Source of the DNA: a virus
Taxonomy: Duplodnaviria; Heunggongvirae; Uroviricota; Caudoviricetes
Strand: one strand, 5' to 3'
Length of the DNA stretch: 64,000 nucleotides
IMG/VR virus record: IMGVR_UViG_3300025913_000018
Part shown: piece after piece, positions 444 to 20,183 of the stretch
How positions within the stretch are numbered: the first letter of the stretch is position 1
Layout of the letters: every line of letters begins with the position of its first letter
Made by a program: the position numbers and the translations under genes
The notes under the pieces: generated by a model
Seen by the model: only the letters and a program-made list of their open reading frames with translations
What the model was told of the DNA's origin: nothing
The model's database searches: none

Positions 444-785
444 TTACGCCCGGTAGTTCGGAAGAGCGCCCGCAACCGTGAGGATCGCCCTCGACACAAT
501 CGCGGTGACTTCTTGGAGCGGATCCAAGACGGTCCTTTGATGGTGCGTCTGGACCCCGAAGGCCCTCGACTCGTCCAGAAGGGCGATACAGTCCCGCGCC
601 ACGAGGACCATCGCTAGGTTCGGCCCCGCCGCCGGGAGGGCCGCGAGCTTACGCAGCTCGGCTTCGCGTTCCGGGGTGACGTAGCCAGCCGGAGAGGTGT
701 CGGTCCAGATCTCGACCTGGAGCGCGCGATCGTTCGAGTCATCTTGGAAGACGCGACTGACCGTCTTCCGTTTCCGCTTCTTCAT
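444..785 (-). CDS. Hypothetical protein
   Basis: ORF; ATG 785 chosen because GCGTAA lies 8 nt upstream. Confidence 0.6.
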   Translation of the reverse strand: MKKRKRKTVSRVFQDDSNDRALQVEIWTDTSPAGYVTPEREAELRKLAALPAAGPNLAMVLVARDCIALLDESRAFGVQTHHQRTVLDPLQEVTAIVSRAILTVAGALPNYRA

Positions 786-866
786 AGCGGTCCTTACGCT
801 GGAACCCTCGCGCAACACTAACCCCTAAGCCGCCTGAAGGAAGGGGCCCCTAGGAGTAATCGACGC

Positions 867-1079
867 GTGACCGCGAAATTGAAGATGGAGTCGGAGTACA
901 TCCACCGGAAGAAGGGGTTCCACGTGATCGTGGGGAGACCCGCCTGGTGGGATTCCGAGCGCGGGGACGAGAAGATCCGAGGACCCATCGTCACCGTGAT
1001 GAGGTGCGGATTGAGCGAGGGCCGCTCGAAGTGGAACATGAGCGAGGCCTCGTTCTTGAAGAACTACAAGGAGGCGTAA
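867..1079 (+). CDS. Hypothetical protein
   Basis: 70 aa ORF ending in GCG-TAA. Confidence 0.5.
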   Translation: MTAKLKMESEYIHRKKGFHVIVGRPAWWDSERGDEKIRGPIVTVMRCGLSEGRSKWNMSEASFLKNYKEA

Positions 1080-1287
1080 TCCAAGACGTGGACCTCCCCC
1101 GACCCCCGCGAATGCTCCGCCCCGTCTTCGTCTTCCCCGGAGTGAGGGAGAAGCTGTTCGTCATCAGCTTCGCGGACGCGGTCGAGAAGCTCGGGGAGGG
1201 TTGGGCTGAGCACCTCCGCCATACGTTCTCTTCTGGCCAGGGATGCGCCGGGGTGTGGGTCCTTCCTCATCCCGACGACGATGGGTC

Positions 1288-1710
1288 ATGATCCCGAGCG
1301 TGAACCGCCTTCGGAAGAGGGTGAAGAAGTGGAACCGGTTCCGGCGCGACCGGTTCGACGAACCATGGGGGACTTCCCTGGCCGCTGTTCTTGAACGCGA
1401 CGAGCCCGACCTGCTCTTCATGCTCGCGGACGAAGACCTCGACCCGACCGGGTACCACGCTGGCAGTCTCCGGTACGAGAAGGCGTGGGGACGACTGATC
1501 GCCGTCATCACCGAGGAACTCGCTCTGATCGCCTCCGAGGAAGCGCGCCAGGCGGCCGTACGCGAGTATCTCTGGTCCGAGAAGGTCGACCCTCTGGACC
1601 TCTCGGAGGACGAGGAAGGACTACTTCCGCTTCCGGCTCTCTCTTCGAACCTCGATCCCCTTCGCGTAGAGGTCGGTGGTCGTGTAGTTGAAGTAGGTCA
1701 ACGCAAGTAG
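1288..1710 (+). CDS. Hypothetical protein
   Basis: Protein-like composition; 3' end overlaps the convergent gene. Confidence 0.5.
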   Translation: MIPSVNRLRKRVKKWNRFRRDRFDEPWGTSLAAVLERDEPDLLFMLADEDLDPTGYHAGSLRYEKAWGRLIAVITEELALIASEEARQAAVREYLWSEKVDPLDLSEDEEGLLPLPALSSNLDPLRVEVGGRVVEVGQRK

Positions 1711-2361
1711 CTCTCGAAAAGCGACACAGGCGTCGATCATAGGCCGATTCGCTTCCAGCCTTTCCCGAAGGACCTCGACAGGGGTCGTGTAGTCCTTGGC
1801 GAAGGGCTCGATCTGCTTCCGGATCTCGTAAGCGTGCGAGAGGGCTACCTTCCACGCGATGATCTCTCCTGAGTCCTCCAGGAAACGAATCGCCTCCCCG
1901 TTCGCTCCGCAATCGTGAAGCCAGATCTGGTCCGGATCGATCTTCGAAAGATCCAGCTTCGAAGGGGAAGACCCGTTGAACATCCGGCTCGTGTTGATCT
2001 CGTTCCCACAGTAGAGAGTGGTGATGAAGAACTGATCGACTTCCTCGTTGGGGATGATCTCGATACGAACCGACTTCTCGTCGATGAAGTGGAAGTAGCC
2101 GTGGGGCGTACGACCCATGCTTCCGAACACGAACCAATTGCTCGCGAGGTGGTATTCGGTATCCTGATCCTCCAGAGTGATGTTCTGGGAGATCTGATTC
2201 GGTTCCCCGTCCGGACGCTTCGCCACATCCTGAGTACAACCACAACCCCCGCGGTCCTCGTGGTCGGAGACCTCTTCGGGAGAAGACTCGGTCCATCGAA
2301 GGGTCTGGAGGGGTCCCTTGAAGAAGGAGTGGCGTTCCACCTTGAGGATCCGCTGGGTCAT
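1621..2361 (-). CDS. Hypothetical protein
   Basis: 246 aa ORF, GCGTAA 8 nt before ATG. Confidence 0.7.
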   Translation of the reverse strand: MTQRILKVERHSFFKGPLQTLRWTESSPEEVSDHEDRGGCGCTQDVAKRPDGEPNQISQNITLEDQDTEYHLASNWFVFGSMGRTPHGYFHFIDEKSVRIEIIPNEEVDQFFITTLYCGNEINTSRMFNGSSPSKLDLSKIDPDQIWLHDCGANGEAIRFLEDSGEIIAWKVALSHAYEIRKQIEPFAKDYTTPVEVLRERLEANRPMIDACVAFRELLALTYFNYTTTDLYAKGIEVRRESRKRK

Positions 2362-2369
2362 GTAGGGTC

Positions 2370-2385
2370 TTACGCCTGGGCGTAA
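2370..2385. promoter_or_regulatory. Divergent class II element TTACGC-CTGG-GCGTAA
   Basis: Palindrome between divergent genes. Confidence 0.6.
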
Positions 2386-2620
2386 GTCGCGAGCCTCTTC
2401 GACGGGTACGATTGTGTACCCAAGTCTTGGAGATCGAGAGATCTTCGATGAGCCCTACTCAGAAGCCATGCCACACCGTATCGTTCGCCGCCTCGCTACT
2501 CGATTGCTCACCCTCGTCGCCCGGAGGCGCCGGAAGGCCGATCCTTCCTTCGACTGGTTCTGGACCGGTCGGGAAGAGTCCGCCGACGAGCATCCGCTCT
2601 GGATCGGGTGAGGTTCGGTC

Positions 2621-2929
2621 GTGAAGAAGAAGGTCCGCGACGAGACCTGGACGGAGCTGTCTTCGATGTTGGGAACGACCGAGAGAAGGAAGCCGTCCGA
2701 GGGGGACTGGGTCAGCGTGACCGGGACGGACGGGAAGGTCTACCTCGGGAAGGTCATTCACCCGTGGGTCATGGAAGACGGGTCACACGTCCCGAGTGAG
2801 GCCGTGAAGCTCACCGTCTCCGCAGTCGGGAAGGAGCACCAGGTTGAGGTCGTCCCCCATCGCGACTTCGCCGAGGCCTCGGTCCTCACCTACTGGTTCT
2901 GGCCCGGCGAGAAGATGAAGGGGGCGTAA
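2621..2929 (+). CDS. Hypothetical protein with SH3-like beta segment
   Basis: GDWVSVTGTDGKVYLGKVI; ends GCG-TAA. Confidence 0.6.
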   Translation: MKKKVRDETWTELSSMLGTTERRKPSEGDWVSVTGTDGKVYLGKVIHPWVMEDGSHVPSEAVKLTVSAVGKEHQVEVVPHRDFAEASVLTYWFWPGEKMKGA

Positions 2930-2939
2930 GGCTCCCACT

Positions 2940-3383
2940 ATGACCGAGTACACGAACGAGTCCGAGAGAGCCTTCCACGAACTTCGCCCAGCGAAGGTCG
3001 GTCTCTTCCAGGTGGCTGACCTCCTGAAGACGGTCGTAGAGCGATTCCAGAAAAAGGAACCGCTCCCCTACGATCTCGACCTGGCCCTACTGACCGTTCA
3101 GACCGCCCTCGTCCACCTCGCTCGGGCGCGATCGCTCTTCGCGAAGGAGGCCGGTCTCCCGAGGTACGTCGAGGTCGAGAAGCCCACCGGGCCGGTCCTC
3201 GTCATCCACTACAGCTACGACCTCTCCAGCGACAGTTCCGGAGCCGACGTCTTCGCCGAGAGGACGATGGAAGCGGCCCAAGAGTCGGTTCGGTCTCGCG
3301 GATGGGGTATGAACGCCTGTACCTTCATCCCGTACTCCGAGACAGGGAAGATCGGTCCTCTCGCAAAGGAAAAGGACCTGTGA
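2940..3383 (+). CDS. Hypothetical protein
   Basis: 147 aa ORF in plus-strand run. Confidence 0.65.
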   Translation: MTEYTNESERAFHELRPAKVGLFQVADLLKTVVERFQKKEPLPYDLDLALLTVQTALVHLARARSLFAKEAGLPRYVEVEKPTGPVLVIHYSYDLSSDSSGADVFAERTMEAAQESVRSRGWGMNACTFIPYSETGKIGPLAKEKDL

Positions 3384-3782
3384 GGTACGAGCTTCCGATC
3401 CTGATCGCAAAGGCTCTCATGGTGGTGACGTGGATGGTGGCTTCCACGTACATCCTCTTCCATCTTCCCTGAGTCGTTCAGAGGCCTGGTTCGCTACGAC
3501 CCGTCGGGTACCTCAATCGCTTCCCAGGTGAGGTCGAGGCCTCCCGCCTTCAGGTCAAGCCCACGTTCTCTGATCTCCCTCGCGGCTCGATCGTCGGCGA
3601 CAATCGTAACGGAGGTGTCAAGGAGAAGACGGGAGACGTCCTGGTCTACTGGGATTGGGATGCGAAGGGTCTCGTACGTGGTGTTCAAGAGGTCCGAGAA
3701 AGATCGGGCTTTCCCTTCGTCCTGAAAGACGCGGACAGGCCACGAAGAATAGAACTCTCGACCCATGACTACCCAAGACATA

Positions 3783-4070
3783 TCAGACGAGACGGACGAG
3801 CGCCTTCACACTGATCGTCTCTGTCCGAAACTCCTGGTTCCGATCGAACCAGGAGCACTTCGCAGTAGCGAGATGGCGAGCATCGGTAGAGATCGACTCC
3901 ACGGTCATCTCGACCGGGGAGGCGACCCTCTGACTCCCGATGGGGACTTCGACTTGTCCTCGATCCGACTTCAGCTTGACCAAGTCCCCGGGCTGGATCT
4001 CACGATCCGGACCCTTCTTCGGGGCGAGCTTCTTCGGGGCTGACACGGACCGGGTCTTCTGAGTCTTCAT
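3783..4070 (-). CDS. YodC/DUF2158-like small beta-barrel protein
   Basis: GDLVKLKS...MTVESI...CSWFD...ETISVKAL pattern. Confidence 0.65.
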   Translation of the reverse strand: MKTQKTRSVSAPKKLAPKKGPDREIQPGDLVKLKSDRGQVEVPIGSQRVASPVEMTVESISTDARHLATAKCSWFDRNQEFRTETISVKALVRLV

Positions 4071-4091
4071 GGGGGAACCTCCGCGGGGACC

Positions 4092-4304: not shown

Positions 4305-4316
4305 CGGAGGACCTCG

Positions 4317-5279: not shown

Positions 5280-5293
5280 TTACTCCCGCGTAA
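5280..5293. promoter_or_regulatory. Divergent class II element TTACTC-CC-GCGTAA
   Basis: Between divergent genes; GCGTAA is 10 nt before ATG 5304. Confidence 0.5.
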
Positions 5294-5303
5294 CGTCCTC
5301 TCG

Positions 5304-5552
5304 ATGAAGCTTCGAACCTTGGTCTTGGTGGTCTTCCTCACAGCCGTAGCGATCACTTGTATCCTGGTGTGGGCTCGGACTCCGACTCGAATGCCTGATA
5401 CAATTCCAGGAAATCGAGGAGGAGAACACCGCCTCTTCTGCGACGCCTACTGCCAGAGCGGACACTCCACCCTTCTTCAGTTCGAATCGACGGACTACGG
5501 GACGAGCGTTCGGTGCGTCTGCGCTGTACTGGATTCCGCCGACCCAGATTGA
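5304..5552 (+). CDS. Small membrane-anchored Cys-containing protein
   Basis: N-terminal hydrophobic helix, CDAYC and CVC. Confidence 0.6.
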   Translation: MKLRTLVLVVFLTAVAITCILVWARTPTRMPDTIPGNRGGEHRLFCDAYCQSGHSTLLQFESTDYGTSVRCVCAVLDSADPD

Positions 5553-5917: not shown

Positions 5918-5950
5918 GGTGAACAGTACCCGAGCGTAAAGTCCTCGGAA

Positions 5951-6382
5951 ATGCTTTCGGAACGAGAGTGTCGGAGGATCCTCGCTCGTCAGACCCCAAG
6001 GACGAGTGTCTACATCCTCGCCTACTACCAATCCGAAGAACACGTTCTGTACGACTTCGGTCGAGGGAAAACGATCGTCCACAGCACGAACATCGGCGGT
6101 CTGATCTCGGTAGAGGACGGTCGGTTCAGCGTTCGACCCGACGCGGTTTCGAAGGGTCGACCTTTCACCACCCTCTCCTGTTGGAGATGTACGAAGGGGT
6201 GGGAGAACCTCAGCTTCAATTGGGACGACGATGTACCCCAATTCGATCGCTACCCCCTCTGCGAGAAGTGTCGAGGGTTCTCCTTGGGGAAGGGTCTCGG
6301 ATGGAAGGGGCGGGCGCTTCTGTGGTGGAAGCGTCGCCATCGCTCGAAGCAGAAAGTCCTTCCCTCCGGCCCGTACCGGTGA
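5951..6382 (+). CDS. Hypothetical protein with two CxxC pairs
   Basis: CWRC and CEKC; ATG 5951 follows GCGTAA. Confidence 0.6.
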   Translation: MLSERECRRILARQTPRTSVYILAYYQSEEHVLYDFGRGKTIVHSTNIGGLISVEDGRFSVRPDAVSKGRPFTTLSCWRCTKGWENLSFNWDDDVPQFDRYPLCEKCRGFSLGKGLGWKGRALLWWKRRHRSKQKVLPSGPYR

Positions 6383-6806
6383 CCGACGGCGTAAGTCAAG
6401 CCATGGCTCTCACGGAACACGAAGCGCACCAATTCAAGGTCGACCTCCACGGGGTATCGGACATGAAGGACGAGATCGAGTCCTTCGTGAAGCGAGAGGA
6501 CTGGTCGAGCGCCCTCCACTGTGCTCAGATCCTCACCGACCTCGCGAACCGACTCCGGGCGAAGATCGAGGAGAAGACCCCCGAGCGGCGATGAAGAGGC
6601 GAACGGTAGTCTACACCACCTTCTGGACGAAGAGGGGGATGGTAGAGGGACCCTCCTTTCGCTCCGTCGTCGAAGCCGAGCGGGCTTGCCTGAAGGCTCT
6701 CGCGGAGGGGTCCGTGAAGGTTCGCTACTGGATCTTCGACTCCCATCGGGGAGAGATTCGGAAGATCTACACCAAGAAGAAGCCCTTCTGGCATGACGAG
6801 TAGTCG

Positions 6807-7409
6807 ATGATCCGAAGGTCCATACACCAGTCCTGCATAGACTGGAAAGCCGTTCGGGATTGGGAGAAAGCTATCCCGGAGACCCGGCGCGAAGAGATAC
6901 ACTCGATCGCCGAAGGTTGGATCAAGAAGCTCGACCCGAGCTATCGGATCGACTGGTCGCCCTCTCCTGGATATCCGTACTCGTGGGACGGATCCGGGCT
7001 CCTTCGAATGGGGACCCAGAAGACTATCCTGGCCCTCCACGACATCGGCCACATCTACTACAGCCCCGCAGATCGACGTCGAGAACCGGAGTTCGGTCTG
7101 GGGGCTGACCCCTACCATGCTTCGAGGGCTCCGATCACCGCCTCACGGAAGAGGATGTGGTGGGAGGAACTCACGACCTGCCACTTGAACTGGGCGATGG
7201 CGGCCTACCTCGAAGGAATCAACGGAGGAGACCTCATCGCCTCCGAGACCAACTGCGAGGAGAGCGCCCCCTACGCGCTCTCTGACGCGGGCCTTCTTCG
7301 CTTCGCTCGGATCTTCGACGTCCCCGACTTTCTCCCGAAGGTGAAGGCCGTTCGGGAACAGGTCCGAAAGCGGAACCTCGATCATCGCTGGCGGAGACCG
7401 AAGACCTAG
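6807..7409 (+). CDS. HExxH-like (HDIGH) metallo-fold protein, loosely EpmC/YfcM-like
   Basis: ALHDIGHIYYSPADRRREPEFGLG with downstream EE. Confidence 0.45.
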   Translation: MIRRSIHQSCIDWKAVRDWEKAIPETRREEIHSIAEGWIKKLDPSYRIDWSPSPGYPYSWDGSGLLRMGTQKTILALHDIGHIYYSPADRRREPEFGLGADPYHASRAPITASRKRMWWEELTTCHLNWAMAAYLEGINGGDLIASETNCEESAPYALSDAGLLRFARIFDVPDFLPKVKAVREQVRKRNLDHRWRRPKT

Positions 7410-7465
7410 GCGTTTTTCCGTCTACCGACGCCTAGCGTAAGGTTCCCCCCTCGAAGGACGAGACC

Positions 7466-9245: not shown

Positions 9246-9710
9246 TCATGTTCCCGTCCTCGTCCTCAGGACCCGTCTCTGAAGGTTCGGGTCCCAATCC
9301 GTTTCCCGATACAGGCGATTCAGGTCTTCCGAGGCCCCCTCGGTTCCGGCCGGAACTCGCTTCCACCACGGGTTCTGGTTAGGCTGCTCCACGCACCAGA
9401 ACCCGAACTCTCGGCACTCCGCGGTGCCTGGGTACTCTCCGCTCCAAGGCACTCGCCGGCTTCCCCACTTCGCGTCCCAGACCTCAAACATCTCCTCGGT
9501 CGGTCCGCTCATGTAGATTTCGGGATAAGTCTCCCTCATCGTCAACTGGTCGATCCCATTCTCCTCGTAGATGCACCCGCAAGAGATGTTCTGACCCCCG
9601 CACTTCGGGCACCGCTCCACGTCGCACCCCTCGACGTGAAGGGCTCCGGGAGCTGCGTCGCAATCTCCGCAGTTTCGAAGCTCGCGAGATCCGTCTGGTT
9701 GGCGATTCAT
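9246..9710 (-). CDS. Cys/His-rich phage protein
   Basis: CGDCDAAPGALHVEGCDVERCPKCGGQNISCGC; GCGTAA 7 nt before ATG. Confidence 0.7.
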   Translation of the reverse strand: MNRQPDGSRELRNCGDCDAAPGALHVEGCDVERCPKCGGQNISCGCIYEENGIDQLTMRETYPEIYMSGPTEEMFEVWDAKWGSRRVPWSGEYPGTAECREFGFWCVEQPNQNPWWKRVPAGTEGASEDLNRLYRETDWDPNLQRRVLRTRTGT

Positions 9711-10693
9711 CCCTTTCTTACGCCGAGCTTCTGGACGTCCGGAAGATCGGGATCGGCTCGACAGAACTCACATAGAGGCTGAGGGTCGTAGCTCTTCCGG
9801 TAGTTGGATTCCGGAACGGGAGCCTCCGGGAAGAACTTGCACTTGGAGCACATCTTCGGCTCCTTCTGGATGTTGTTCATTCGGCTCCGGAGTTCCCTGA
9901 TGTGGCCCCGAAGTAGGGAGTGGTCCATCACTTCGAACGGCTCGTCTCCGGATCGTAGCGCGCCTCGATACAAGTCATGATGTCGGGAGGGAGCGGACGG
10001 TTCCCGTAGGTCAGCGGGTCTTCCGTGTAGAAGTGGATCCCGTTACCGAGACGCCCATACTCTCCGCAGTTCTCGCAGGCCATACGAGTCGAACCGTATG
10101 GCTGGTTTCGCTGGGTGATGAGGTGGAGGATCTTCATCGGTTCTTCGGTCACACGAGCCTCTTTCGGTTGAGGATGACGAAGACGATCAGACCGAGAGCG
10201 ATCCCCTCTCGCGGTAGAAGATGGTCCCACACCCCGTAGAGGAACAAAGGGATCATGATCACGAGGAGCGTGTACCCCACCGCTCGAAGAACGGACGCGA
10301 CCCTCTCAGAGTACACGGACGCCTACTCGCAGTCTTTCTCTCGATCGTCGACCCAACGACGTCCGTGAGGAGAACAGTGAGGACCTTCGTGTCCGCGCTT
10401 GAGTTGACAGCGACCAGCGTTCGGACCCCTCTCGCCGATCTCCACCGCGTACGAGTTGTACTTCCCACAAGAAGGCGCCTCGGTCTTCTGTTCCATGGGG
10501 CGTGTTACTCCTTCCAGGGATGCTTCGATGTGGAGGTAGACCTCATAGGCGAGACCAAAACTCCCTGAGCCACCGGTGAAGACCGCGACTGGAGTACGTC
10601 CGGGGACGTGGAGGATCACGAGGACATGCTCCCCTTCTTTCAGAGGGCGAGTCCCGGGGACCCATCCTCGATCCGACGTAAGCTCGACCCGGC

Positions 10694-11302
10694 TCATCTT
10701 CTCCACCATGCCGTAGGATCTCCGGGCGCCGTCGTCACGAGCCGGAACGTGAGGTTCATCCGCGGACCCACGGGCTTCGACGTCTTCGGGACGCTATGGG
10801 CCCAGTACCTCTGGAGCGCTCCCTTCATGAGAAGGCAGTCACCCCCACCGAGGAGGTACTCGACCTTCTCGTCATCGCTCTTCCGCTTCAAGACGAAGCG
10901 GCGCGCGGACCCGAGGGAGACGCTCGCGATCACCGGCCCTAGCTCTGGCTCGTCGTCGGAATGGAACCCCACGGAGTCCTTCCCGTCCCGGTAGTAGTTC
11001 ACGAGGACCGAGTTGAACTCGCCGATCTCAACCAACTCCTTCCGAAGAGGGAGCAGCAAGTCAGGCCAGGGGAGGGGCTCGAACCGCTTCCCAGAGTACG
11101 TGTAGGAGGTTCCCGGTTCCCCGTGCCAACTCGTAAGCCGAGGCATCGGTACGTCCCCTCCCGCGAAGCGAAGAGACTCCTGTTTCAAGGGGAGGGACTG
11201 GACGAGGTCTCTCATGAGACGGTCGTGGTTCGGGACCGCGTCCACGTAGTGGTTGACGTGCCCGTCTCCCGGATAGAACGTCTGCGAAGAGACGAGCCTC
11301 AT
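10694..11302 (-). CDS. alkB: AlkB-family 2OG-Fe(II) dioxygenase (ALKBH2/3-like)
   Basis: PRLTSW, FNSVLVNYYRDGKDSVGFHSDDE (HxD), IASVSLG, WAHSVPK (distal His), RMNLTFR. Confidence 0.92.
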   Translation of the reverse strand: MRLVSSQTFYPGDGHVNHYVDAVPNHDRLMRDLVQSLPLKQESLRFAGGDVPMPRLTSWHGEPGTSYTYSGKRFEPLPWPDLLLPLRKELVEIGEFNSVLVNYYRDGKDSVGFHSDDEPELGPVIASVSLGSARRFVLKRKSDDEKVEYLLGGGDCLLMKGALQRYWAHSVPKTSKPVGPRMNLTFRLVTTAPGDPTAWWRR

Positions 11303-11826
11303 TGAGACAGCTCGTCGGCCATCTCCTCCAGGGCCAGGGCGAAGGCCGACCAATCGTCGGTCGGATGCCACTCGCCCACGTGGGGTCGCTTCCCTTGGTA
11401 GCTCCGAACCTTCTCGTGGTAGAACTTGGCCCGCTCGCGAAGCTCGGAGATGACCGAGTCGCGACCCGTCGACCTACGGACGGCGTCCGCGTAGTTGTCT
11501 AGGGCGGCCGAGAAGGCGAACCCGTCGCTCGACCCCTGGAGGCTGAGAAGAACGCCCCTAGCGTGTTCTACGGTGTCGGGCGCCAGGGCTCGGATCTCAG
11601 CCGCCAGATCGCTATCTCGATCGCTGATCATTCGCTTTCCCTTATCGCTCCGATGGGCCTGAAGGAAGAGGATCAGGATCGTCGGGAAGAGGCCGAAGTT
11701 CAAGACGCTCCAGAGCTGACCCCGCGATTCCAAGGCGAGGGTCACGGTGAGGAAGGCGAGGATAGCTCCGAGACCGTTCAGGACCTGGTCCATGAGTCTC
11801 AATCGCATTATCGCCCGTTTCGCCAT
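11299..11826 (-). CDS. Membrane protein, two N-terminal TM helices
   Basis: Two hydrophobic segments; start 7 nt from class II element. Confidence 0.6.
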   Translation of the reverse strand: MAKRAIMRLRLMDQVLNGLGAILAFLTVTLALESRGQLWSVLNFGLFPTILILFLQAHRSDKGKRMISDRDSDLAAEIRALAPDTVEHARGVLLSLQGSSDGFAFSAALDNYADAVRRSTGRDSVISELRERAKFYHEKVRSYQGKRPHVGEWHPTDDWSAFALALEEMADELSQ

Positions 11827-11833: not shown

Positions 11834-11848
11834 TTACGCCCGGCGTAA
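11834..11848. promoter_or_regulatory. Divergent class II element TTACGC-CCG-GCGTAA
   Basis: Exactly 7 nt from each divergent ATG (11826 and 11856). Confidence 0.7.
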
Positions 11849-11855: not shown

Positions 11856-12152
11856 ATGAGAGACGAGAAGTTCATGTTGGAACAGTACGCTCGCGAGAAG
11901 AAAGACCTCGTGCTCTTCCCCCTCCCTGGAGACGAAGCGATCCGAGGCCGGATCGTCTACGTTCGAGGCGACGACTTCCTCTTCTTGTCCCGAGACCGGC
12001 GGAGGTCTCAGTGGGGGAACTTGAAGAACGACTCGATCCGTCCCTGGGACGAAGTGAAGCACTGGAACCGCTTCACCAACCGGAACGACTTCCACTTCAT
12101 CGTCGGGCCGAACGTCGGGGCGTTCATGGACTGGACCGATTGGGTGGCCTAA
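11856..12152 (+). CDS. Hypothetical protein
   Basis: ATG 7 nt after GCGTAA, no Shine-Dalgarno. Confidence 0.6.
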   Translation: MRDEKFMLEQYAREKKDLVLFPLPGDEAIRGRIVYVRGDDFLFLSRDRRRSQWGNLKNDSIRPWDEVKHWNRFTNRNDFHFIVGPNVGAFMDWTDWVA

Positions 12153-13054: not shown

Positions 13055-13496
13055 CGACCTACCGAAGACCGATCTTCGGGTAATTGGTACGAACCAGGTA
13101 CTGGACCCGGACCTCTACCCCCATCGTGCTTCGGAACAATCATGAGATGCGTGGCTGCGGTCATTGTCCACTTCGCTTTCGGTCTGCAACATACGCAGCG
13201 AACGACTCGTCATCAGGGTCGTCATAGTTGTCCCAGGCTGCTCGGATTTTCAACTTCGCGTCGATCATGCAGGCCCACCATCCCGATACGATCACGAGCG
13301 CTACCGCGACCCTCATCGTGAGCCCTCAGAGAGCCAGTACGCGGCTCGATCGAGCACTCGACAAACGATCGGGTACCGATCCGAATCGAGGGTCTGGGAG
13401 ACGTCAAGAAGAACGGCGACCAGAAGTCGATCTTCCGCTACCGCGCGTGTCCAGGCGATGTACCGGCGCTGTAGTCGAACTTCTCTCATGAGCCCC

Positions 13497-13512
13497 TTAC
13501 GCCGAAGCGTAA
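13497..13512. promoter_or_regulatory. Divergent class II element TTACGC-CGAA-GCGTAA
   Basis: 7 and 8 nt from divergent ATGs 13489 and 13521. Confidence 0.7.
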
Positions 13513-13520: not shown

Positions 13521-13790
13521 ATGAAGAAGCTCGCGCTAGTCGTCCTCGCCCTCACGCTTTCGGGTTGCCCGGTGAGCGACTCCAGCGCCGACGAGGCGCT
13601 CCGAGAGGAAGGTCTCCACGATCCTTCGTACGGAGGACCGTCGCCCTGGTCGTGTCACGACGGCGATCACTTCTCTCGAAGCTTCGACGCCCATCGAACG
13701 ACACTCGATCGAGACGGTCATCCTCAGGAGATCGCCGTCTCCGGAGTGATCTGCTGCGGGTACCTCACCTGCGTCGTTCGAGTAGACTGA
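13521..13790 (+). CDS. Putative lipoprotein
   Basis: MKKLALVVLALTLSGC signal peptide II with lipobox LSGC. Confidence 0.75.
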   Translation: MKKLALVVLALTLSGCPVSDSSADEALREEGLHDPSYGGPSPWSCHDGDHFSRSFDAHRTTLDRDGHPQEIAVSGVICCGYLTCVVRVD

Positions 13791-14200: not shown

Positions 14201-14692
14201 TCATCTCCAGTAAAGGTGAAGGCCCCACTTCAGCTGTACGTCGTACACGGCGGAGAGGAGCGCGATGTCGGCTTCGAACCGCTTCTGGAACTGAGTCAAC
14301 TCCAGAGCCTGGGATTGACCGTCGACCGGAAGAGAGACGTGAGCGTCTCCTCCCTCGTGGTAGGAGAAGTCTCGCTGTCCCTTCGCGGGCCTCAGGTTCG
14401 AGAGGTAGTAGAAGACCGTCGGATCTTTGGTGTCTTCGATCCAGGTCAGGTTCTCTCGATCTCCCATAGCCTCCATCGGGTTCGGACGATACGGGAGCAT
14501 GCTCTGGGTCTTACCCCAGGCGGATCCGCACTCCGAACAGAACTTCTTCTCCACTTCCCAGGAGAACTTCGAACGCCTCGCGTAGGTCCCGCACTTCTCG
14601 TTCGTACAGCCGAACATGTCGGTGAGTCTCATCTCCGGACGAAACCGAGCCTCGACGTAGGGGCCGAGGTAGACGCTGAGGTAGCTTGACAT
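14201..14692 (-). CDS. Zn-ribbon-containing hypothetical protein
   Basis: CTNEKC and CSEC; start 7 nt from class II element. Confidence 0.65.
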   Translation of the reverse strand: MSSYLSVYLGPYVEARFRPEMRLTDMFGCTNEKCGTYARRSKFSWEVEKKFCSECGSAWGKTQSMLPYRPNPMEAMGDRENLTWIEDTKDPTVFYYLSNLRPAKGQRDFSYHEGGDAHVSLPVDGQSQALELTQFQKRFEADIALLSAVYDVQLKWGLHLYWR

Positions 14693-14699: not shown

Positions 14700-14714
14700 T
14701 TACGCCCCGGGTAA
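14700..14714. promoter_or_regulatory. Divergent class II element TTACGC-CCC-GGGTAA
   Basis: 7 and 8 nt from divergent ATGs 14692 and 14723. Confidence 0.65.
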
Positions 14715-15124
14715 CGTGAAGAATGTTCTCTCGCGTCATTCATTCGAGGATCGGCTACTGCCCGACGTGTAAGATCGCGGTCCTCCTCGAAGTGAAGCCA
14801 GAGTCCGAGACGTACACCACCGGGAAGCACCTCGCGCCATGCGGGGCGCCCTGCTTCGGGGGCGGGCTATCCGAGACCCAGGTCGAGAAGAAGGACGCCC
14901 ACGGAGGGCCTTTCCGGTGCCCTAAGGGGTGCCCTGATCCGTAGCTCTTCGGGCGTCCAAGATCTCCTTCAGTCGGCTCGGATCTTCGACCCAGGAGGCG
15001 TACTCTGCCTCGGAGAACCCGAGCCATTGTGCTAGCGAGACCCCAGACTGAGCGGCGTGCCAGGCATCGATCGCGTCGTCGATCTCCTCAACTTCGCCGC
15101 GTAGCGCCCGCTCCACGAAGGTGG

Positions 15125-15643
15125 TCACTCTCGACTCAGTTCCTTCTGGTACGGAGAGGGAGCCAACTCCTTCGTGAACTGAGAGGAGTCGAGATGGTCC
15201 CCGATCGCCGTTCGTCCCTTCACGAGGTGGAGGAGCGCGATCTTCGCGTAGCTCGCAGCGAAGCCCAACTCACCCGGGACGTAGTCGATCGGAGTGTTCT
15301 CCGTCGGAAGGTTCAACGACGCCGTCTCCAACAGGAGGTAGATCTCGGCGAGGGCCTTCTTCACGGGGCTGAGATCTTGGAAGGCCAGACGATAGCGTTC
15401 GAGGATCGTCATGCCCGAAGAATCGCGGAACAAGAAGCGCGGAGCCTTCTTTGGATAGACGACACGAGGACCCCATTCCCAACCCACGAAGGGCTGAGGG
15501 ATCTGTTCGAGGTCCTTCAGCTTCCACTCGGTTCTCTCGAAGGTACAGACGTAGAGATCCGGAGAACCGCCGACCTCGACGATCATCTTTCTCCCCGTCT
15601 TCTTCTCGATCATCCAGTAGTAGCCGGCTTCGGTCGGTGTCAT
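15125..15643 (-). CDS. Hypothetical protein with N-terminal PTEAGYYW module
   Basis: Similar module in 36517..36774; GCGTAA 7 nt upstream. Confidence 0.65.
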   Translation of the reverse strand: MTPTEAGYYWMIEKKTGRKMIVEVGGSPDLYVCTFERTEWKLKDLEQIPQPFVGWEWGPRVVYPKKAPRFLFRDSSGMTILERYRLAFQDLSPVKKALAEIYLLLETASLNLPTENTPIDYVPGELGFAASYAKIALLHLVKGRTAIGDHLDSSQFTKELAPSPYQKELSRE

Positions 15644-16497
15644 GGGTCCCTTACGCTCCGATTCGAGTAGAGGTCCATCATCGTCTCGACGAGGTCTCTC
15701 TCAGGAAGCTTCGGAGCGAGGCTCCAAGCGAGTTCCCTCTTTCGTCGGCGCCGATCTCTTCGCCGACGCTTTCGAACCCGGCGCTTCCTCCGAGTCATCG
15801 CGAGCGGCGACGTTCGAGAACCGCCCGAGCGACGGCCTGGGCTCCGGCTTCGGAGATCACTCCACGAAGGTCGCTGAGGTCGACGGATGGGTGCTTCTTC
15901 ACGTACGCCTTCACGAGCGTCTCGACATCGAAGGCGAGTCCCCGACCCTCCTCCTTCATCCGACCGTCCGTCTCGAAGAGGCGCTTCGTACGGGGCTTCT
16001 TCGGTGGAGACATAGTCTTCGACAGGGAAGCGGCAGAGATCTTGGACGGATCGAATTCGCGAGCCATCCGTCCCTTACGCTCGGTTTCGCTGGAAGTAAG
16101 CAACGAGGCCTCCCACGATCCCTCCGCCGATCACCACCAAGACGGTAAGCGTGGGGTAGGTGATGAAGGTCTCGAAGAACGGATCGAAGAAGGCCTTCAT
16201 GACATCACTCCTTTGAGGTGGCGGACGGGATCAGGCTTTCCATCGCCCCGAGGGATCGGATGTAGACCTGGTAGACGGTGACTCCGGGCTCGCGGTGGGA
16301 AGGTTCGGCCTCAACCTTCGCTTCCCAGACGCCCGGACCGTAGAACGTCGAAATCCAATCGGCGAACTCCTGAGCCTTCTCACGAGTGTGGCGACGGTGC
16401 TTCCCGAGGGCTGGAACGATCCACTCCCCCGGAACAACCACCCCGTCCACGAGACGAGCTTCAGACTTCTTGCTCTCTTCGGTCATCGTACGTCCGT

Positions 16498-17133: not shown

Positions 17134-17448
17134 TTTACGCCGGAGGAGGTTCCATGAGCTCTCTGGCCAACCGAAGGGCTCGGATCGTCGAGATCGTGTT
17201 CCGAAGGTGCCAGCGACGATCGGCCGCGGGACACGGAGGACATCCCGGTCCGTGACGTTCCAAGAACGAATCCTCCACCTCGGACTCGTGGAACTGGATG
17301 GCGTCCTCGATCTCTTGAATCCGAACGCTCTGGACGGGGGAGAGGGAGTAGCGGAAAGCTCTCCGATTGCGGACGAGAACCGCCAGCTCCGACTCGCTCA
17401 AGGAGCGTTCTCGCCAAAAACGATCGTACCGAGTGAGCATCCTCTCCC

Positions 17449-17458
17449 TTACGCGTAA
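17449..17458. promoter_or_regulatory. Overlapping divergent class II element TTACGCGTAA
   Basis: Perfect 10-bp palindrome 8 nt from each divergent ATG (17440 and 17467). Confidence 0.7.
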
Positions 17459-17466
17459 GGTGGGGG

Positions 17467-17946
17467 ATGACCCCGACTGAGATCGACCTCGACCGAGCCG
17501 TCCGCCTTCTCGCCGCCGTGGGGAAACGGGTACGAGGCGAGGATTGCGGTTCAGAGTACTGGCGGAAGGATGACGCCTGTGTGACGAACGGGTGCGTCCG
17601 CCTCTTCACCGACGATGAAGGCGGGAACGTGAAGTGGTACTTCCGCGACGGAGAGAGCGTCTTGGAAGCTACGGTCTCAGCTCTTCTCGTAGAACGTTCG
17701 GATGAGCTGTACAGGTTGGCGTGTGACGACGCAACCTGCGCCTCTCACGGGAACCTCACTCGCTATCGAGAGAAGGCGGAGAGGCTTCGAAAGCTCCGGG
17801 CCGATCCAAACTTGGCCGAGAGAAACCTCTTGGGGGAGATGGACGATCTCTACTTGCTCCTCACGGAAGACGAGAAGGAGATCGTGGAAAGCGAGAGCTG
17901 GAACAAGACCCTCTACCCGAGACCCGTCGACTCAGAGGCGAAGTGA
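17467..17946 (+). CDS. Hypothetical protein
   Basis: 159 aa. Confidence 0.65.
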   Translation: MTPTEIDLDRAVRLLAAVGKRVRGEDCGSEYWRKDDACVTNGCVRLFTDDEGGNVKWYFRDGESVLEATVSALLVERSDELYRLACDDATCASHGNLTRYREKAERLRKLRADPNLAERNLLGEMDDLYLLLTEDEKEIVESESWNKTLYPRPVDSEAK

Positions 17947-18140
17947 CCCTCCTGGACGGCTACGTCACGAAGTACGAACCGGAGCGTGGTCTCGTCACCG
18001 TACGGCTTCGCGTAGGGAGCGAGGTCGAGTTCTCAGCCGAGGGGCTCTCTGACGGCGGTAGGCGCCTTCCGGAAGTGGGGGATGGGGTAGTGGTCGTCCT
18101 CGACGCGCGGGGGAAGGTACGGGGCGCGAGAGCAGCCTAG
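17943..18140 (+). CDS. Cold-shock-like OB-fold small protein
   Basis: GYVTKYEPERGLVTV...VEF...LPEVGDGV. Confidence 0.45.
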   Translation: MTLLDGYVTKYEPERGLVTVRLRVGSEVEFSAEGLSDGGRRLPEVGDGVVVVLDARGKVRGARAA

Positions 18141-18159
18141 TCGGTAGAGTCCGCTGAAG

Positions 18160-19008
18160 ATGGACATCCCGATCAACATCCGAGTCCAGTTCGATGAGAA
18201 CTCCGCGACCTACCAGTTGGAGAAGCCTTCGACGGTCTTTCTCTCGATGGAGCAGAGGGATGACGATTTGCTCGCGAAGTGGAGGGCGATCCTCTCTCGC
18301 CCGATCGAGGCCCCGACCTCGGTCTCCTTCTCGACAGGACGACCGCGCGAGACGCTGCGCCTGAAGGAACTGATCGCAGCGGTTCTTCTGGGAGTCCCGT
18401 CCGACAAGATCGGCCTCTTCACGAACATCCGCTTCCGCGACCCGAAGGGCGTTCCGATCGAGTACATCGGAACGGAACATCTCCGGTCCGTCATGGACGA
18501 ACCGAGGGATACCCCCTACCCGGAGCAGCCCGAGACGGAGGCTCGCCCGGCCTACTTCAAAGACCGGAAGTTCGACACGACACTCGAAGAGCCTCTCTTC
18601 GGGGTAGTGGAGCGTCCGTTGCTTGACAACGACCCCGAGCTGTCCCTGTTGTGGGGGGACTGGTTCTACACGAAGGTGAAGGTCGACCGAGCGTTCCCGG
18701 ACGCGGTCCCCGGTATCTACCATCGCTTCCCGGAAAGCGAAGAGATCGAGCCCCAGGAAGCGGTCGCTCTCGACATCCTCGCGGCCCAGCAGCGAGTCGT
18801 ACTACAGACTCAACTCGCCCATCATCGGAAGCTCATGGAGAAGGTTCGGGCGGCGACCTCGATCTTGGAAACTCGTTCGGCCCTCGCCGAATGCAAGAGC
18901 CACTACCAGATCTTGACGAAGGCGGAGAGGGCGATTCTGGACCCGGAGTTCAACCAGATGATGGGGGAGTTGAGCGTCTCTCCCGTTACTGGTCCCCGCA
19001 ACCAGTAA
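18160..19008 (+). CDS. Hypothetical protein
   Basis: 282 aa ORF with protein-like composition. Confidence 0.7.
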   Translation: MDIPINIRVQFDENSATYQLEKPSTVFLSMEQRDDDLLAKWRAILSRPIEAPTSVSFSTGRPRETLRLKELIAAVLLGVPSDKIGLFTNIRFRDPKGVPIEYIGTEHLRSVMDEPRDTPYPEQPETEARPAYFKDRKFDTTLEEPLFGVVERPLLDNDPELSLLWGDWFYTKVKVDRAFPDAVPGIYHRFPESEEIEPQEAVALDILAAQQRVVLQTQLAHHRKLMEKVRAATSILETRSALAECKSHYQILTKAERAILDPEFNQMMGELSVSPVTGPRNQ

Positions 19009-19013
19009 GGCGC

Positions 19014-19331
19014 TTAGAGGGGCCCGTAGGCTTCGATCGCTTCCTTCGCGTCGACCAATCCACACCCCGTCAACATCCGAAGACGCTGGATGGCGTGGAT
19101 CTTCCGAGCGTAGAGGGCGTCGGCCGAGGTCTCTCCTGGGCGAATGGAACGGCCGTGGATGACGGCGAGAGCGATCGAGGTCGCATCGAGGTTGGGCTCC
19201 AACTTCCCCAAGGCCTCGACTAGAGCGTCTCGGAGCTGAAGGGCGTCCTTCAGCGGGAGGACGAGAACCGACCCCGGGGAAAAGGGAAGTTCGATCCGAA
19301 CGGAGTCCTTGGAGAGGAAGACGTTGATCAT
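19014..19331 (-). CDS. Protein with ribosomal L7/L12 C-terminal-like domain
   Basis: RKIHAIQRLRMLTGCGLVDAKEAIE resembles the KI.AIK.VR..TGLGLKEAK..VE signature. Confidence 0.7.
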   Translation of the reverse strand: MINVFLSKDSVRIELPFSPGSVLVLPLKDALQLRDALVEALGKLEPNLDATSIALAVIHGRSIRPGETSADALYARKIHAIQRLRMLTGCGLVDAKEAIEAYGPL

Positions 19332-19478
19332 CCCTGTCTCCTCTCCGCTTCGGCACGACCCTCGATACGGCCCGCGTCCCAAGCTCGGCGATAGAGCAGG
19401 GAGGCGCCGAAGTAGAGGTTCAGCATGATGGACGCGATCATGACCATCCAGAACACGAACTCGGTGTCGTTGTTCATC

Positions 19479-20009
19479 TCAGTCCTTCGTGGAGGAAAGG
19501 TCGGCCAGGGTAGCAGCGAGGGTAGAGAGGGCTCGACCGCAGCAATCGTCGTCGTGGGTCGAGTCTTCGAAGGCTTCGGTCGCGGCTTTCGTAGCCAGTT
19601 CCGACGCTCTCTTCAACCCCATCACGATTCCTTCGGCTCGTAGGCGCTCGTCCCGAGCTTTCCCCGCCTCGTCGAGATTCGCGAGGACGTCCTTCACGGA
19701 AGGAATCGACGGATCAGGGAAGACGTGCTCGTGCTCCCCAGCCTTCATGTCGTGACCCCAGGGCGCTCGACAACGCCCGGTGGAGTTGAAGATACCGCAG
19801 CGGTCCCTATCGTCGGAGAGAGGGAGCTGACCTACGGCCTCGACGAGGGCCGCGAGGCGAGCTTCGGCCTTTTCGGTTGCCTCCGCTCGAACGGAGGAGA
19901 TCTTCTCACTCTCCTCCAACCTGTAGAGGAGGTCGTTCTCCCGGCCCAGGCAGCTGGGAGGGTGGGAACCGAACCGACCGCAATACGGACACGTCGTTTG
20001 AACGGACAT
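19479..20009 (-). CDS. Hypothetical protein with Cys/His clusters
   Basis: CPYC..HPPSC N-terminus; GCGTAA 10 nt upstream. Confidence 0.6.
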   Translation of the reverse strand: MSVQTTCPYCGRFGSHPPSCLGRENDLLYRLEESEKISSVRAEATEKAEARLAALVEAVGQLPLSDDRDRCGIFNSTGRCRAPWGHDMKAGEHEHVFPDPSIPSVKDVLANLDEAGKARDERLRAEGIVMGLKRASELATKAATEAFEDSTHDDDCCGRALSTLAATLADLSSTKD

Positions 20010-20183
20010 CTCCGCCCCGTTACGCCCGGAGCTTCTGCCGGAGACCGGCGATCACTTCCCTCGAAGAGCGCTGAGGATAGCGGCTACCTCACCCAAGACG
20101 CAGATCAACACGACGCCGAGGAAAAGCGAGGCTGCCCAATGGTTGCCGATAGCGGCGAGAAAGTCTTCCATGCGTGTCTCTCC

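What the first reader, a model, noticed from the sequence alone, without database searches (positions are those of the whole stretch)
444..20025. Single-hexamer GCGTAA signal 7-10 nt before start codons: a possible leaderless-transcript programme
Seen: GCGTAA precedes starts at 794, 1074, 2370, 6389, 9718, 11834/11843, 13497/13507, 14700, 15651, 16075, 17449/17453 and 20020, and also 34553, 45834 and 57698. GAGTAA variants sit at the same spacing at 37649, 39634, 41845, 48078 and 55815. The gap often has no Shine-Dalgarno (for example CGTCCCC-ATG). Established: a -10 element lies about 6-8 nt from the TSS, and T4-type late promoters are -10-only. Inference: a phage-specific -10-only promoter that starts transcription at the ATG. 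Alternative: a translation-initiation signal, since TAAGG can pair with the 16S 3' end.
Basis: partly seen in the sequence, partly recalled or inferred. Interest (0 to 1): 0.72.

Follow-up and report, generated by a model that had tools for sequence, protein, structure and literature searches.

The report
Start-codon-abutting GNGTAA promoter-like hexamer
In this uncultivated giant soil phage, the short signal G-N-G-T-A-A sits 7-8 bases before about 35-40 start codons and at the head of nearly every transcription unit in a 22-kb block of small genes, so it is most likely a minimal -10-type promoter that starts messages at the start codon.

Summary
GCGTAA occurs 35 times against 11 expected. GNGTAA followed by ATG after 7 or 8 bases occurs 26 times against about 0.5 in shuffles.

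The true motif is G-N-G-T-A-A (N mostly C, then A or G). No -35-like element lies upstream of it. Most copies are not stop codons of real genes. Where the TAA is a stop, the effect is TAA-specific: GGAGTAA 6 of 10, GGAGTGA 0 of 9.

Three results favour a promoter:
- The motif marks 14-17 of the 17 unit heads in 0-22 kb, and no sigma-70-type promoter is found there.
- Its distance to the ATG matches that of the leaderless members of the phage's second, bipartite promoter class (GTGTAR-N16-CGTTAC).
- In a relative, CGTAAC replaces CGTTAC as the -10 box of that bipartite promoter.

Four related metagenomic phages whose sigma factors are 62-68% identical show the same motif at independently called gene starts.

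No RNA data exist, so the transcription start is inferred, and an RNA-level start-selection signal remains a live rival. What reads the motif is unknown.

This scan has already reported other phage promoters that abut start codons, on other DNA. I file this one as a new variant of a known kind.

The parts
794..799 (-). GCGTAA, gap 8, ATG at 785 (gene 444-785). Head of a divergent unit.
   Evidence: the Logan/JGI gene call gives the same start
854..859 (+). GAGTAA, gap 7, GTG at 867 (gene 867-1079). Head; divergent partner of 794.
   Evidence: Logan call
1074..1079 (+). GCGTAA whose TAA is the stop of 867-1079. Gap 8, GTG at 1088.
2370..2375 (-). GCGTAA, gap 8, ATG at 2361 (gene 1621-2361, 246 aa). 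Head.
   Evidence: JGI/Logan call
2380..2385 (+). GCGTAA, back-to-back partner of 2370. No start codon within 11 nt. The next called gene starts at 2621.
2924..2929 (+). GCGTAA whose TAA is the stop of 2621-2929. Gap 10, ATG at 2940.
5288..5293 (+). GCGTAA, gap 10, ATG at 5304 (82-aa ORF that fills an otherwise gene-free gap).
5934..5939 (+). GCGTAA, gap 11, ATG at 5951. Head. The divergent gene (start 5917) has the variant GGGTAC at gap 8.
6389..6394 (+). GCGTAA, gap 8, ATG at 6403.
9718..9723 (-). GCGTAA, gap 7, ATG at 9710 (first start of ORF 9246-9710).
   Evidence: Logan call
11834..11839 (-). GCGTAA, gap 7, ATG at 11826. Half of the back-to-back pair TTACGC-N3-GCGTAA.
   Evidence: Logan call
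11843..11848 (+). GCGTAA, gap 7, ATG at 11856. The other half of the pair; 29 nt lie between the two ATGs.
   Evidence: JGI call
13497..13502 (-). GCGTAA, gap 7, ATG at 13489 (58-aa ORF). Half of a pair with N4 spacing.
13507..13512 (+). GCGTAA, gap 8, ATG at 13521.
14700..14705 (-). GCGTAA, gap 7, ATG at 14692 (163 aa). Half of a pair.
14709..14714 (+). GGGTAA, gap 8, ATG at 14723. Partner of 14700.
15651..15656 (-). GCGTAA, gap 7, ATG at 15643 (172 aa). A strain variant carries a 1-nt insertion in the gap, making it 8.
16075..16080 (-). GCGTAA whose TAA is the stop of 16075-16200. Gap 7, ATG at 16067.
17449..17454 (-). GCGTAA, gap 8, ATG at 17440 (101-aa ORF). Overlaps its partner by 2 nt (TTACGCGTAA).
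17453..17458 (+). GCGTAA, gap 8, ATG at 17467 (159 aa).
20020..20025 (-). GCGTAA, gap 10, ATG at 20009 (176 aa).
20532..20537 (-). GGGTAA, gap 9, ATG at 20522 (first start of ORF 20184-20522).
21639..21644 (-). GTGTAA, gap 9, ATG at 21629. Head of the minus-strand block, facing the 830-nt non-coding region.
34553..34558 (+). GCGTAA, gap 7, ATG at 34566 (156 aa). Not a stop codon.
   Evidence: JGI call
37260..37265 (+). GAGTAA, gap 8, ATG at 37274. Not a stop codon.
   Evidence: JGI call
37649..37654 (+). GAGTAA whose TAA is the stop of 37274-37654. Gap 7, ATG at 37662.
   Evidence: JGI call
39634..39639 (+). GAGTAA (stop). Gap 8, ATG at 39648.
40181..40186 (+). GTGTAA (stop). Gap 7, ATG at 40194.
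41845..41850 (+). GAGTAA (stop). Gap 7, ATG at 41858.
45834..45839 (+). GCGTAA, gap 7, ATG at 45847 (141 aa). Head of a unit; not a stop codon.
46277..46282 (+). GGGTAA, gap 9, ATG at 46292.
48078..48083 (+). GAGTAA (stop). Gap 8, ATG at 48092.
51593..51598 (+). GGGTAA (stop). Gap 7, GTG at 51606.
55815..55820 (+). GAGTAA (stop). Gap 7, ATG at 55828.
57698..57703 (+). GCGTAA, gap 7, GTG at 57711 (82-aa ORF).
62189..62194 (+). GGGTAA, gap 7, ATG at 62202 (164 aa).
22456..23268 (+). Phage sigma-factor gene (Sigma70_r2). Candidate reader of the bipartite promoters and possibly of the hexamer. Neither motif lies upstream of it.
54122..54158 (+). Example of the second promoter class used as internal calibration: GTGTAG-N16-CGTTAC, then 6 nt, then ATG at 54156. 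This is a leaderless member with the same -10-to-ATG geometry.

Best explanation
GNGTAA is a minimal, -35-independent, -10-type promoter element of this phage lineage. If transcription starts 7-8 nt after the hexamer, as at other -10 elements, the hexamer occupies about -13 to -8 and the first transcribed base is the A (or G) of the start codon, or the base before it. The mRNAs are then leaderless or nearly so.

Back-to-back copies on opposite strands drive divergent units whose start codons are only 24-31 bp apart. Inside co-directional gene runs the same hexamer doubles as the TAA stop of the upstream gene.

Shown: the motif, its spacing, its placement at unit heads and its conservation in relatives.

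Inferred: that it acts on DNA as a promoter, and that the start site is the start codon.

The reader of the motif is unknown. Candidates are the phage's ECF-like sigma working without a -35 contact, another phage factor, or a host holoenzyme.
For: 1. Spacing and enrichment. 26 GNGTAA-N7/8-ATG against about 0.5 expected. 41 sites at gaps 7-11 open ORFs of at least 50 codons, with gaps 7 and 8 dominant at 18 and 14.

2. Location. 58 of 79 GNGTAA copies lie in the roughly 12% non-coding DNA or on a stop codon.

3. Unit heads. In 0-22 kb, 13 of 17 unit heads carry the motif by strict rule, against 9 of 40 interior genes (Fisher p = 2e-4). One miss is a start-call artefact (11856). The other three carry a variant or a distant copy.

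4. No alternative promoter. There are 0 sigma-70-type sites in 1-20 kb against 3.0 expected. No upstream k-mer or column is conserved.

5. Paired copies. Spacing between the two halves varies from -2 to +5 nt, while each half keeps 7-8 nt to its own ATG. A strain variant with a 1-nt insertion at 14704 changes only the spacing between halves. Another at 15647 changes a gap from 7 to 8. Both are low-depth contigs.

6. Internal calibration. The bipartite class GTGTAR-N16-CGTTAC puts the ATG either 7 nt after CGTTA (5 cases) or 17-20 nt after it with a GGAG(G) in between. The class-A gap is therefore the gap of the leaderless members of a conventional two-box promoter.

7. -10 box in a relative. 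In relative L003 the -10 box of that bipartite promoter is CGTAAC in 6 of 10 copies. CGTAA is thus used as a -10 box in this lineage.

8. Geometry. CGTAA at -12 to -8 matches the ECF -10 register (C-12 G-11 in sigma-ShbA, PMC12019637). GTAA at -11 to -8 matches the AACA box of AR9 late promoters (PMC5312081).

9. Conservation. The motif recurs at independently called gene starts in L003, L005, L006 and L009 (p = 2e-6, 3e-8, 2e-4, 2e-3). It is absent from L007, whose sigma is only 42% identical.

10. TAA specificity. GGAGTAA 6 of 10, against GGAGTGA 0 of 9 and GGAGTAG 1 of 7. 19 of 28 TAA stops are GNGTAA.
Against: No transcript 5' end is available, so nothing shows that RNA begins at these ATGs.

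Only five bases are specified and there is no -35, which is unusual for ECF-type sigmas; they normally need one.

21 copies lie inside coding sequence (15 sense, 6 antisense) and would be stray promoters.

Eleven start-associated copies sit on the stop codon of a co-directional upstream gene, where no promoter is needed and a translational role would be natural.

A spacing of 7-8 nt is also typical of ribosome-binding sites, and two thirds of the sites read TAAGG.

Position -12 is variable (C, A or G), whereas the bipartite class keeps C there.

Orthologues of class-A genes in relatives do not keep the motif at the same gene.
Confidence: 0.62

Rival explanations
1. GNGUAA acts in the mRNA as a start-selection or translation-initiation signal. 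It would be a 'start-associated sequence' read by the ribosome or by a phage-encoded or phage-modified translation factor at SD-like spacing.
For: The 7-8 nt distance to the start codon is SD-like. 18-19 of 27 sites continue with GG, and TAAGG can pair with the 16S 3' end in some bacteria. Eleven sites are operon-internal, on the stop of the upstream gene. The window encodes translation-related domains: an RMF-like domain at 27.1 bits, plus PTH2 and L12-C-like hits. Precedent: the SAS repeats of Cluster K mycobacteriophages, whose function is still unknown (PMC3203893).
Against: A third of the sites have no GG after TAA yet keep the same spacing. The invariant bases (G, G, T) cannot pair beyond a normal 16S 3' end. 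The phage uses ordinary GGAG(G) sites elsewhere. At divergent junctions of 24-31 bp, the promoters for both mRNAs would have to lie inside the opposite gene, and no conserved signal exists there. The motif is tied to unit heads. There is no strong ATG bias: 34 of 41 against 121 of 162 overall. CGTAA is a DNA-level -10 box in relative L003.
Confidence: 0.2
2. The hexamers are half-sites of an operator for a dimeric phage regulator that controls divergent gene pairs (TTACGC-N-GCGTAA palindromes). On this reading they are not promoters themselves.
For: Five junctions carry inverted copies: 2370/2380, 11834/11843, 13497/13507, 14700/14709 and 17449/17453.
Against: Half-site spacing ranges from an overlap of 2 to +5 nt, which is incompatible with one dimer geometry. 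Most copies are single. Each copy is fixed relative to its own ATG, not to its partner.
Confidence: 0.06
3. GNGUAA is an RNA-processing site. A phage or host endoribonuclease would cut there to free monocistronic messages with short leaders.
For: The motif lies at gene boundaries, including on stop codons, in long co-directional runs.
Against: This gives no reason for copies at divergent unit heads, where no upstream RNA of that strand is expected. No nuclease with this specificity was seen in the window. It does not explain the shared geometry with the bipartite promoters.
Confidence: 0.05
4. The pattern is a by-product of TAA stop codons and base composition, with no function of its own.
For: TAA is a stop codon, and 19 GNGTAA copies are stops.
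Against: 30 of the 41 start-associated copies are not stops. Shuffles give about 0.5 against 26 observed. TGA and TAG contexts show no such spacing. The pattern recurs in four diverged relatives.
Confidence: 0.02

Closest known systems
[quoted passage not shown]
   Same: A -10-type element alone, without a conserved -35, lies a few bases before the start codon, and the message begins at the start codon. In D. radiodurans the motif alone was sufficient as a promoter.
   Different: The sequence there is TATAAT/TAnnnT-like. Here it is GNGTAA, and only 4 of 27 sites have T at the sixth position counted from TA. Here the host is unknown and no TSS data exist.
ECF (group 4) sigma promoters, for example sigma-ShbA CGTAAC-N16-CGATGA (PMC12019637), and this phage's own GTGTAR-N16-CGTTAC class
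   Same: The core is CGT(A/T)A, with C-12 G-11 in register if the ATG is +1. A sigma with region 2 is encoded 0.8 kb from the class-A block. CGTAAC is the -10 box of the bipartite promoters in relative L003.
   Different: There is no -35 box and no fixed spacer partner. Position -12 is not always C. There is an extra invariant G at -13. ECF sigmas are not known to work from a -10 alone.
T4 late promoters (TATAAATA, read by gp55 with gp33 and the clamp) and the late promoters of phiKZ-like phages (AR9 AACA-N6-TA/G; phiKZ TATG; PMC5312081)
   Same: These are very short, -35-less phage promoters. The AR9 tetramer occupies -11 to -8, exactly where GTAA falls here if the ATG is +1.
   Different: The sequences differ. 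AR9 mRNAs have 26-491-nt leaders. No gp55-like protein and no phage RNA polymerase subunit was found in this window.
Start-associated sequences (SAS) of Cluster K mycobacteriophages (PMC3203893)
   Same: A short oriented repeat lies a few bases before start codons of a subset of non-structural genes. It sometimes contains the stop codon of the upstream gene. Its function is unproven.
   Different: SAS is 13 bp with an AGGAG core and shows a marked ATG bias. Here the signal is a 6-bp motif without an SD core, it is linked to unit heads, and it occurs in back-to-back pairs.

Membership tests
Leaderless '-10 adjacent to ORF' promoters | A conserved short element ends 6-8 nt before the start codon, with no conserved -35 | tested here: met
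   Gaps of 7 (18 sites) and 8 (14 sites) dominate. No upstream conservation.
Leaderless '-10 adjacent to ORF' promoters | Element matches TATAAT / TAnnnT | tested here: not met
   The consensus is G-N-G-T-A-A-g-g. T at the sixth position from TA occurs in only 4 of 27 sites (listing).
Leaderless '-10 adjacent to ORF' promoters | Mapped 5' triphosphate ends at the start codon | not testable with these tools
   No RNA run holds this DNA.
Leaderless '-10 adjacent to ORF' promoters | Element present at the heads of transcription units | tested here: met
   13 of 17 heads against 9 of 40 interior genes, p = 2e-4. The remaining heads have variants.
ECF sigma promoters | Two boxes with a fixed 16-17 nt spacer | tested here: not met
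   Class-A sites have no partner box. The criterion is met only by the separate GTGTAR-N16-CGTTAC class.
ECF sigma promoters | -10 box with a CGT core at -12 to -10 | tested here: inconclusive
   22 of 41 sites are GCGTAA. The rest are GAGTAA, GGGTAA or GTGTAA. CGTAAC serves as the -10 box in relative L003.
ECF sigma promoters | Cognate sigma factor encoded by the element | tested here: inconclusive
   A sigma gene lies at 22456-23268 (Sigma70_r2, E = 1e-5). Its link to the hexamer is untested.
T4-type late promoters | TATAAATA box read by gp55/gp33 | tested here: not met
   The sequence differs. A Pfam scan of 140 window proteins found no gp55-like or gp33-like family. The rest of the genome was not available.
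Start-associated sequences (Cluster K phages) | 13-bp repeat with an AGGAG core, 3-7 bp before the start, with ATG bias | tested here: not met
   The motif is 6 bp without an SD core. ATG in 34 of 41 sites against 121 of 162 for all genes.
phiKZ/AR9-type nvRNAP promoters | Phage multisubunit RNA polymerase present | not testable with these tools
   None was found in the 64-kb window. The whole genome is not held.

The most novel reading that the evidence does not exclude
GNGUAA is not a promoter. It is a phage-private, Shine-Dalgarno-independent start-selection code in the mRNA, read by ribosomes that the phage has remodelled. The window carries an RMF-like domain protein, and RMF is known to mask the anti-SD region. 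It also carries L12-C-like and PTH2 genes. Phage early messages would then be translated while SD-dependent host initiation is blocked.
Probability: 0.1. Interest if true: 0.85.

Novelty: new variant of a known kind. Interest (0 to 1): 0.55.

Why it matters
If the hexamer is a promoter, this lineage of giant soil phages runs a block of about 20-25 small orphan genes from the smallest promoter one could build: five specified bases and no -35. The copies are packed back to back, so that divergent genes start 24-31 bp apart, and every message is leaderless.

It would also show a sigma-70-family -10 box (CGTAA/CGTTA) used in two modes in one genome, with and without a -35 box. That gives a clean natural system for asking what makes a promoter -35-independent.

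Practically, the motif fixes the start codons of dozens of otherwise ambiguous small genes. It also explains why two thirds of the rare TAA stops in this GC-rich genome sit in one sequence context.

Tried and rejected
Close relatives in annotated phages: none by megablast.

Relatives in IMG/VR by three proteins and one exact 38-mer: none.

Whole genome of the window: not held. Records behind the loci could not be searched. Genome-wide counts were therefore impossible. Only 8.4 kb beyond the window's start was added, and it holds one further site.

RNA evidence: no RNA holder is listed for this DNA.

Strain variants in two other rhizosphere runs gave only low-depth contigs, and only 40 of 191 differences were shown. 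That was too little for a conservation test.

Homologues of a class-A protein (11299-11826): only itself among 5.8 billion proteins. Ten proteins with the motif upstream had no Pfam family, and only one had a weak PHROG hit (45847-46272, phosphatase-like).

Orthologue-level test: the few class-A genes with homologues in relatives do not keep the motif at the same gene. The signal follows unit architecture, not gene identity.

Search for a -35 partner by column information and by 4-6-mer enrichment over 48 sites: nothing survives multiple testing.

Sigma-70-type promoters and T-tract terminators: none or depleted.

Terminator hairpins just upstream of co-directional sites: only one was convincing (7406-7435, z = -2.8). 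The others were not significant.

A second sigma-like gene seen in relative L003 has no counterpart in the window.

Host inference from the phage adenylosuccinate synthetase: best hits of 42-47% are spread over Chloroflexota, Myxococcota, Actinomycetota and Patescibacteria, so it is uninformative.

Full report
WHAT THE WINDOW IS

The window is 61-62% GC and densely packed with short genes. My codon-usage caller finds 162 genes covering 88% of the sequence. PHROG families of unknown function hit strongly. Earlier notes of this scan describe the genome as an uncultivated giant soil phage. A near-identical 110-kb JGI rhizosphere contig and a Logan contig carry the same genes, which gave me independent gene calls.

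THE OBSERVATION

- GCGTAA occurs 35 times against 11.1 +/- 2.8 in shuffles.
- 16 of the 35 are followed by ATG after exactly 7 or 8 nt, against a 1.7% background. No other hexamer comes close, except GAGTAA at 7 of 18.
- Aligning all GTAA-N7/8-ATG sites shows the unit G-N-G-T-A-A. The first G is present in 26 of 27 sites, there is a weak GG after the TAA, and no column upstream of it is conserved.
- GNGTAA-N7-ATG occurs 14 times and GNGTAA-N8-ATG 12 times. Shuffles give 0.34 and 0.20.
- Allowing gaps of 6-11 nt and ATG or GTG, 41 sites open ORFs of at least 50 codons. Gaps: 7 (18 sites), 8 (14), 9 (3), 10 (5), 11 (1). Starts: 34 ATG and 7 GTG.
- Many of these starts are also the ones chosen by the JGI or Logan callers.

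THE STOP-CODON CONTROL

- Only 1 of the 16 GCGTAA sites with gap 7-8, and 11 of the 41 start-associated sites, are stops of called genes.
- The relation runs the other way. 19 of the 28 TAA stops in the window are embedded in GNGTAA.
- The spacing effect is specific to TAA. GGAGTAA has ATG at 7-8 nt in 6 of 10 cases, GGAGTGA in 0 of 9 and GGAGTAG in 1 of 7.
- TAA stops therefore appear to be recruited by the signal, not the signal produced by the stops.

WHERE THE MOTIF SITS

- Of 79 GNGTAA copies, 39 are intergenic, 19 are on stops, 15 are sense and 6 antisense within genes. Coding sequence makes up 88% of the DNA.
- The non-stop copies cluster in 0-22 kb, a block of small orphan genes on both strands.
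- In that block, 13 of 17 heads of transcription units carry the motif by a strict rule, against 9 of 40 interior genes (Fisher p = 2e-4).
- The four misses are explained as follows. One is a start-call artefact (11856). One has a copy 235 nt upstream (2380). Two have variants: GGGTAC at gap 8 before 5917, and GGTAAG at gap 9 before 5251.
- Five junctions carry the motif on both strands. The distance between the two halves ranges from a 2-nt overlap (TTACGCGTAA at 17449-17458) to 5 nt, while each half keeps 7-8 nt to its own ATG. That argues against a dimeric operator and for a signal positioned relative to each gene start.
- Two low-depth strain variants fit this. A 1-nt insertion at 14704 alters only the distance between halves. 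One at 15647 turns a gap of 7 into 8.

WHY A PROMOTER IS THE BEST READING

1. The 0-22 kb block has no sigma-70-type promoter (0 found, 3.0 expected). It has only one copy of the phage's other promoter class (7847). Its units nevertheless need promoters, and at junctions of 24-31 bp there is no room for anything else. No conserved sequence is hidden in the neighbouring gene.

2. The other class, GTGTAR-N16-CGTTAC, has 23 copies, mostly in 24-63 kb. It is a conventional two-box promoter of ECF type. A sigma gene with region 2 lies at 22456-23268. Its start codons fall either 7 nt after CGTTA (five genes, for example 43414, 54156, 62725) or 17-20 nt after it with GGAG(G) in between. The 7-nt gap of GNGTAA is therefore the gap of the leaderless members of a bona fide promoter class.

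3. In relative L003, whose sigma is 62% identical, the -10 box of the bipartite promoters reads CGTAAC in 6 of 10 copies and CGTTAC in 4. CGTAA is thus used as a -10 box in this lineage. In the window itself the two forms are cleanly split. All 23 bipartite copies use CGTTA, none uses CGTAA, and every leaderless CGTTA that precedes a called gene start (4 of the 5 CGTTA-N6-8-ATG matches) has its -35 box.

4. With the A of the ATG as +1 and a gap of 7, GCGTAA places C-12 and G-11. That is the register of an ECF -10 box solved for sigma-ShbA (PMC12019637). GTAA then falls at -11 to -8, the place of the AACA box of AR9 late promoters (PMC5312081).

5. A -10 element that abuts the ORF has been shown to suffice as a promoter and to give leaderless mRNAs in Deinococcus-Thermus (PMC12340547; PMC4007540).

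CONSERVATION IN RELATIVES

Homologues of the sigma factor lead to long metagenomic contigs. The results per relative:
- Window: 29 of 79 GNGTAA sites precede ATG at 7-9 nt (p = 6e-26).
- L003, 62% sigma identity: 7 of 29 (p = 2e-6).
- L005, 62%: 9 of 26 (p = 3e-8).
- L006, 68%: 4 of 13 (p = 2e-4).
- L009, 62% over part of the protein: 6 of 26 (p = 2e-3).
- L007, 42%, no bipartite motif: 0 of 11.

The matched ATGs coincide with the independent gene calls, for example 12 starts in L005. The few class-A genes with homologues in these relatives do not keep the motif at the same gene. The signal belongs to the lineage's gene-expression system rather than to particular genes.

WHAT REMAINS OPEN

- No RNA run holds this DNA, so the start sites are inferred.
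- The spacing is also that of a ribosome-binding site, and two thirds of the sites read TAAGG. Eleven sites are operon-internal.
- An RNA-level start signal, like the unexplained SAS repeats of Cluster K mycobacteriophages (PMC3203893), is therefore a real rival.
- Against that rival: the sites without GG, the invariant bases that cannot pair with 16S rRNA, the phage's normal use of GGAG(G), the head-of-unit association, and the DNA-level use of CGTAA in L003.
- The reader of the motif is unknown. The sigma gene has neither motif upstream. Instead it has a roughly 45-nt element shared with three relatives, which suggests it is expressed first from a third kind of promoter. Both motif classes could then depend on it, but ECF-type sigmas are not known to work without a -35 box.

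VERDICT

The kind of element, a phage promoter abutting start codons to give leaderless mRNAs, is known experimentally, and this scan has noted it in several other phages.

New here are:
- the sequence and its extreme brevity;
- the back-to-back packing;
- the double use as a stop codon;
- its kinship with the -10 box of a co-resident ECF-like regulon.

Noticed in passing
window 42247-42471 (+), possibly starting further upstream in ORF 41896-42471: A small protein has a ribosome-modulation-factor-like domain (PF04957, 27.1 bits against a cut-off of 27.9). The motif EGYRAFGLG...NPY...WDGGWR resembles RMF. This is a possible phage interference with ribosomes.
   Followed up: partly
window, among the 140 proteins scanned: There are single hits to PTH2 peptidyl-tRNA hydrolase (E = 2e-33), the ribosomal L7/L12 C-terminal domain (E = 2e-4), a 2OG-Fe(II) oxygenase, DUF1653 and a nucleotidyltransferase. 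I did not locate the PTH2 and L12-like genes.
   Followed up: no
window 21630-22455, and L003/L005/L006 about 9900-10000: An 830-nt non-coding region separates the class-A block from the sigma gene. Its last roughly 90 nt (...CCGTGGAYAGATAGAC...ACGGAGG...ATG) are conserved upstream of the sigma gene in three relatives. This suggests a third promoter or leader type, and that the sigma protein starts at ATG 22456 (270 aa).
   Followed up: partly
L003 12784-15178 and 19861: In this relative the bipartite promoter's -10 box is CGTAAC in 6 of 10 copies. The window uses CGTTAC exclusively.
   Followed up: yes
L003 13109-13711 (-): A second sigma-like protein (200 aa, HTH plus Sigma70_r4) lies 3 kb from the first sigma gene in a relative. 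No counterpart exists in this window.
   Followed up: partly
window, all TAA stops: TAA is the rarest stop (28, against 99 TGA and 33 TAG). 19 of the 28 lie within GNGTAA, six of them as the GTGTAA -35 box of the bipartite promoters. Stop-codon choice seems dictated by promoter motifs.
   Followed up: yes
window 5304-5552 (+), 13313-13489 (-), 17135-17440 (-): Three ORFs of 58-101 codons start right after a motif copy and fill gaps left by my gene caller. They are probably real small genes.
   Followed up: partly
window 7406-7435: A 9-bp-stem hairpin (z = -2.8) directly abuts GCGTAA at 7435. It could be a terminator-promoter junction.
   Followed up: partly
window about 36310-36415 against L001: The JGI contig differs from the window by a roughly 95-105-bp length difference here and is otherwise 99.97% identical. 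Another strain (run X2) lacks 13065-13328.
   Followed up: no
window 31487-31533: A variant bipartite promoter, GTGTAG-N16-CGTTTC, precedes gene 31534. The GCGTAA at 31457 lies 71 nt before that gene and may be inactive.
   Followed up: no
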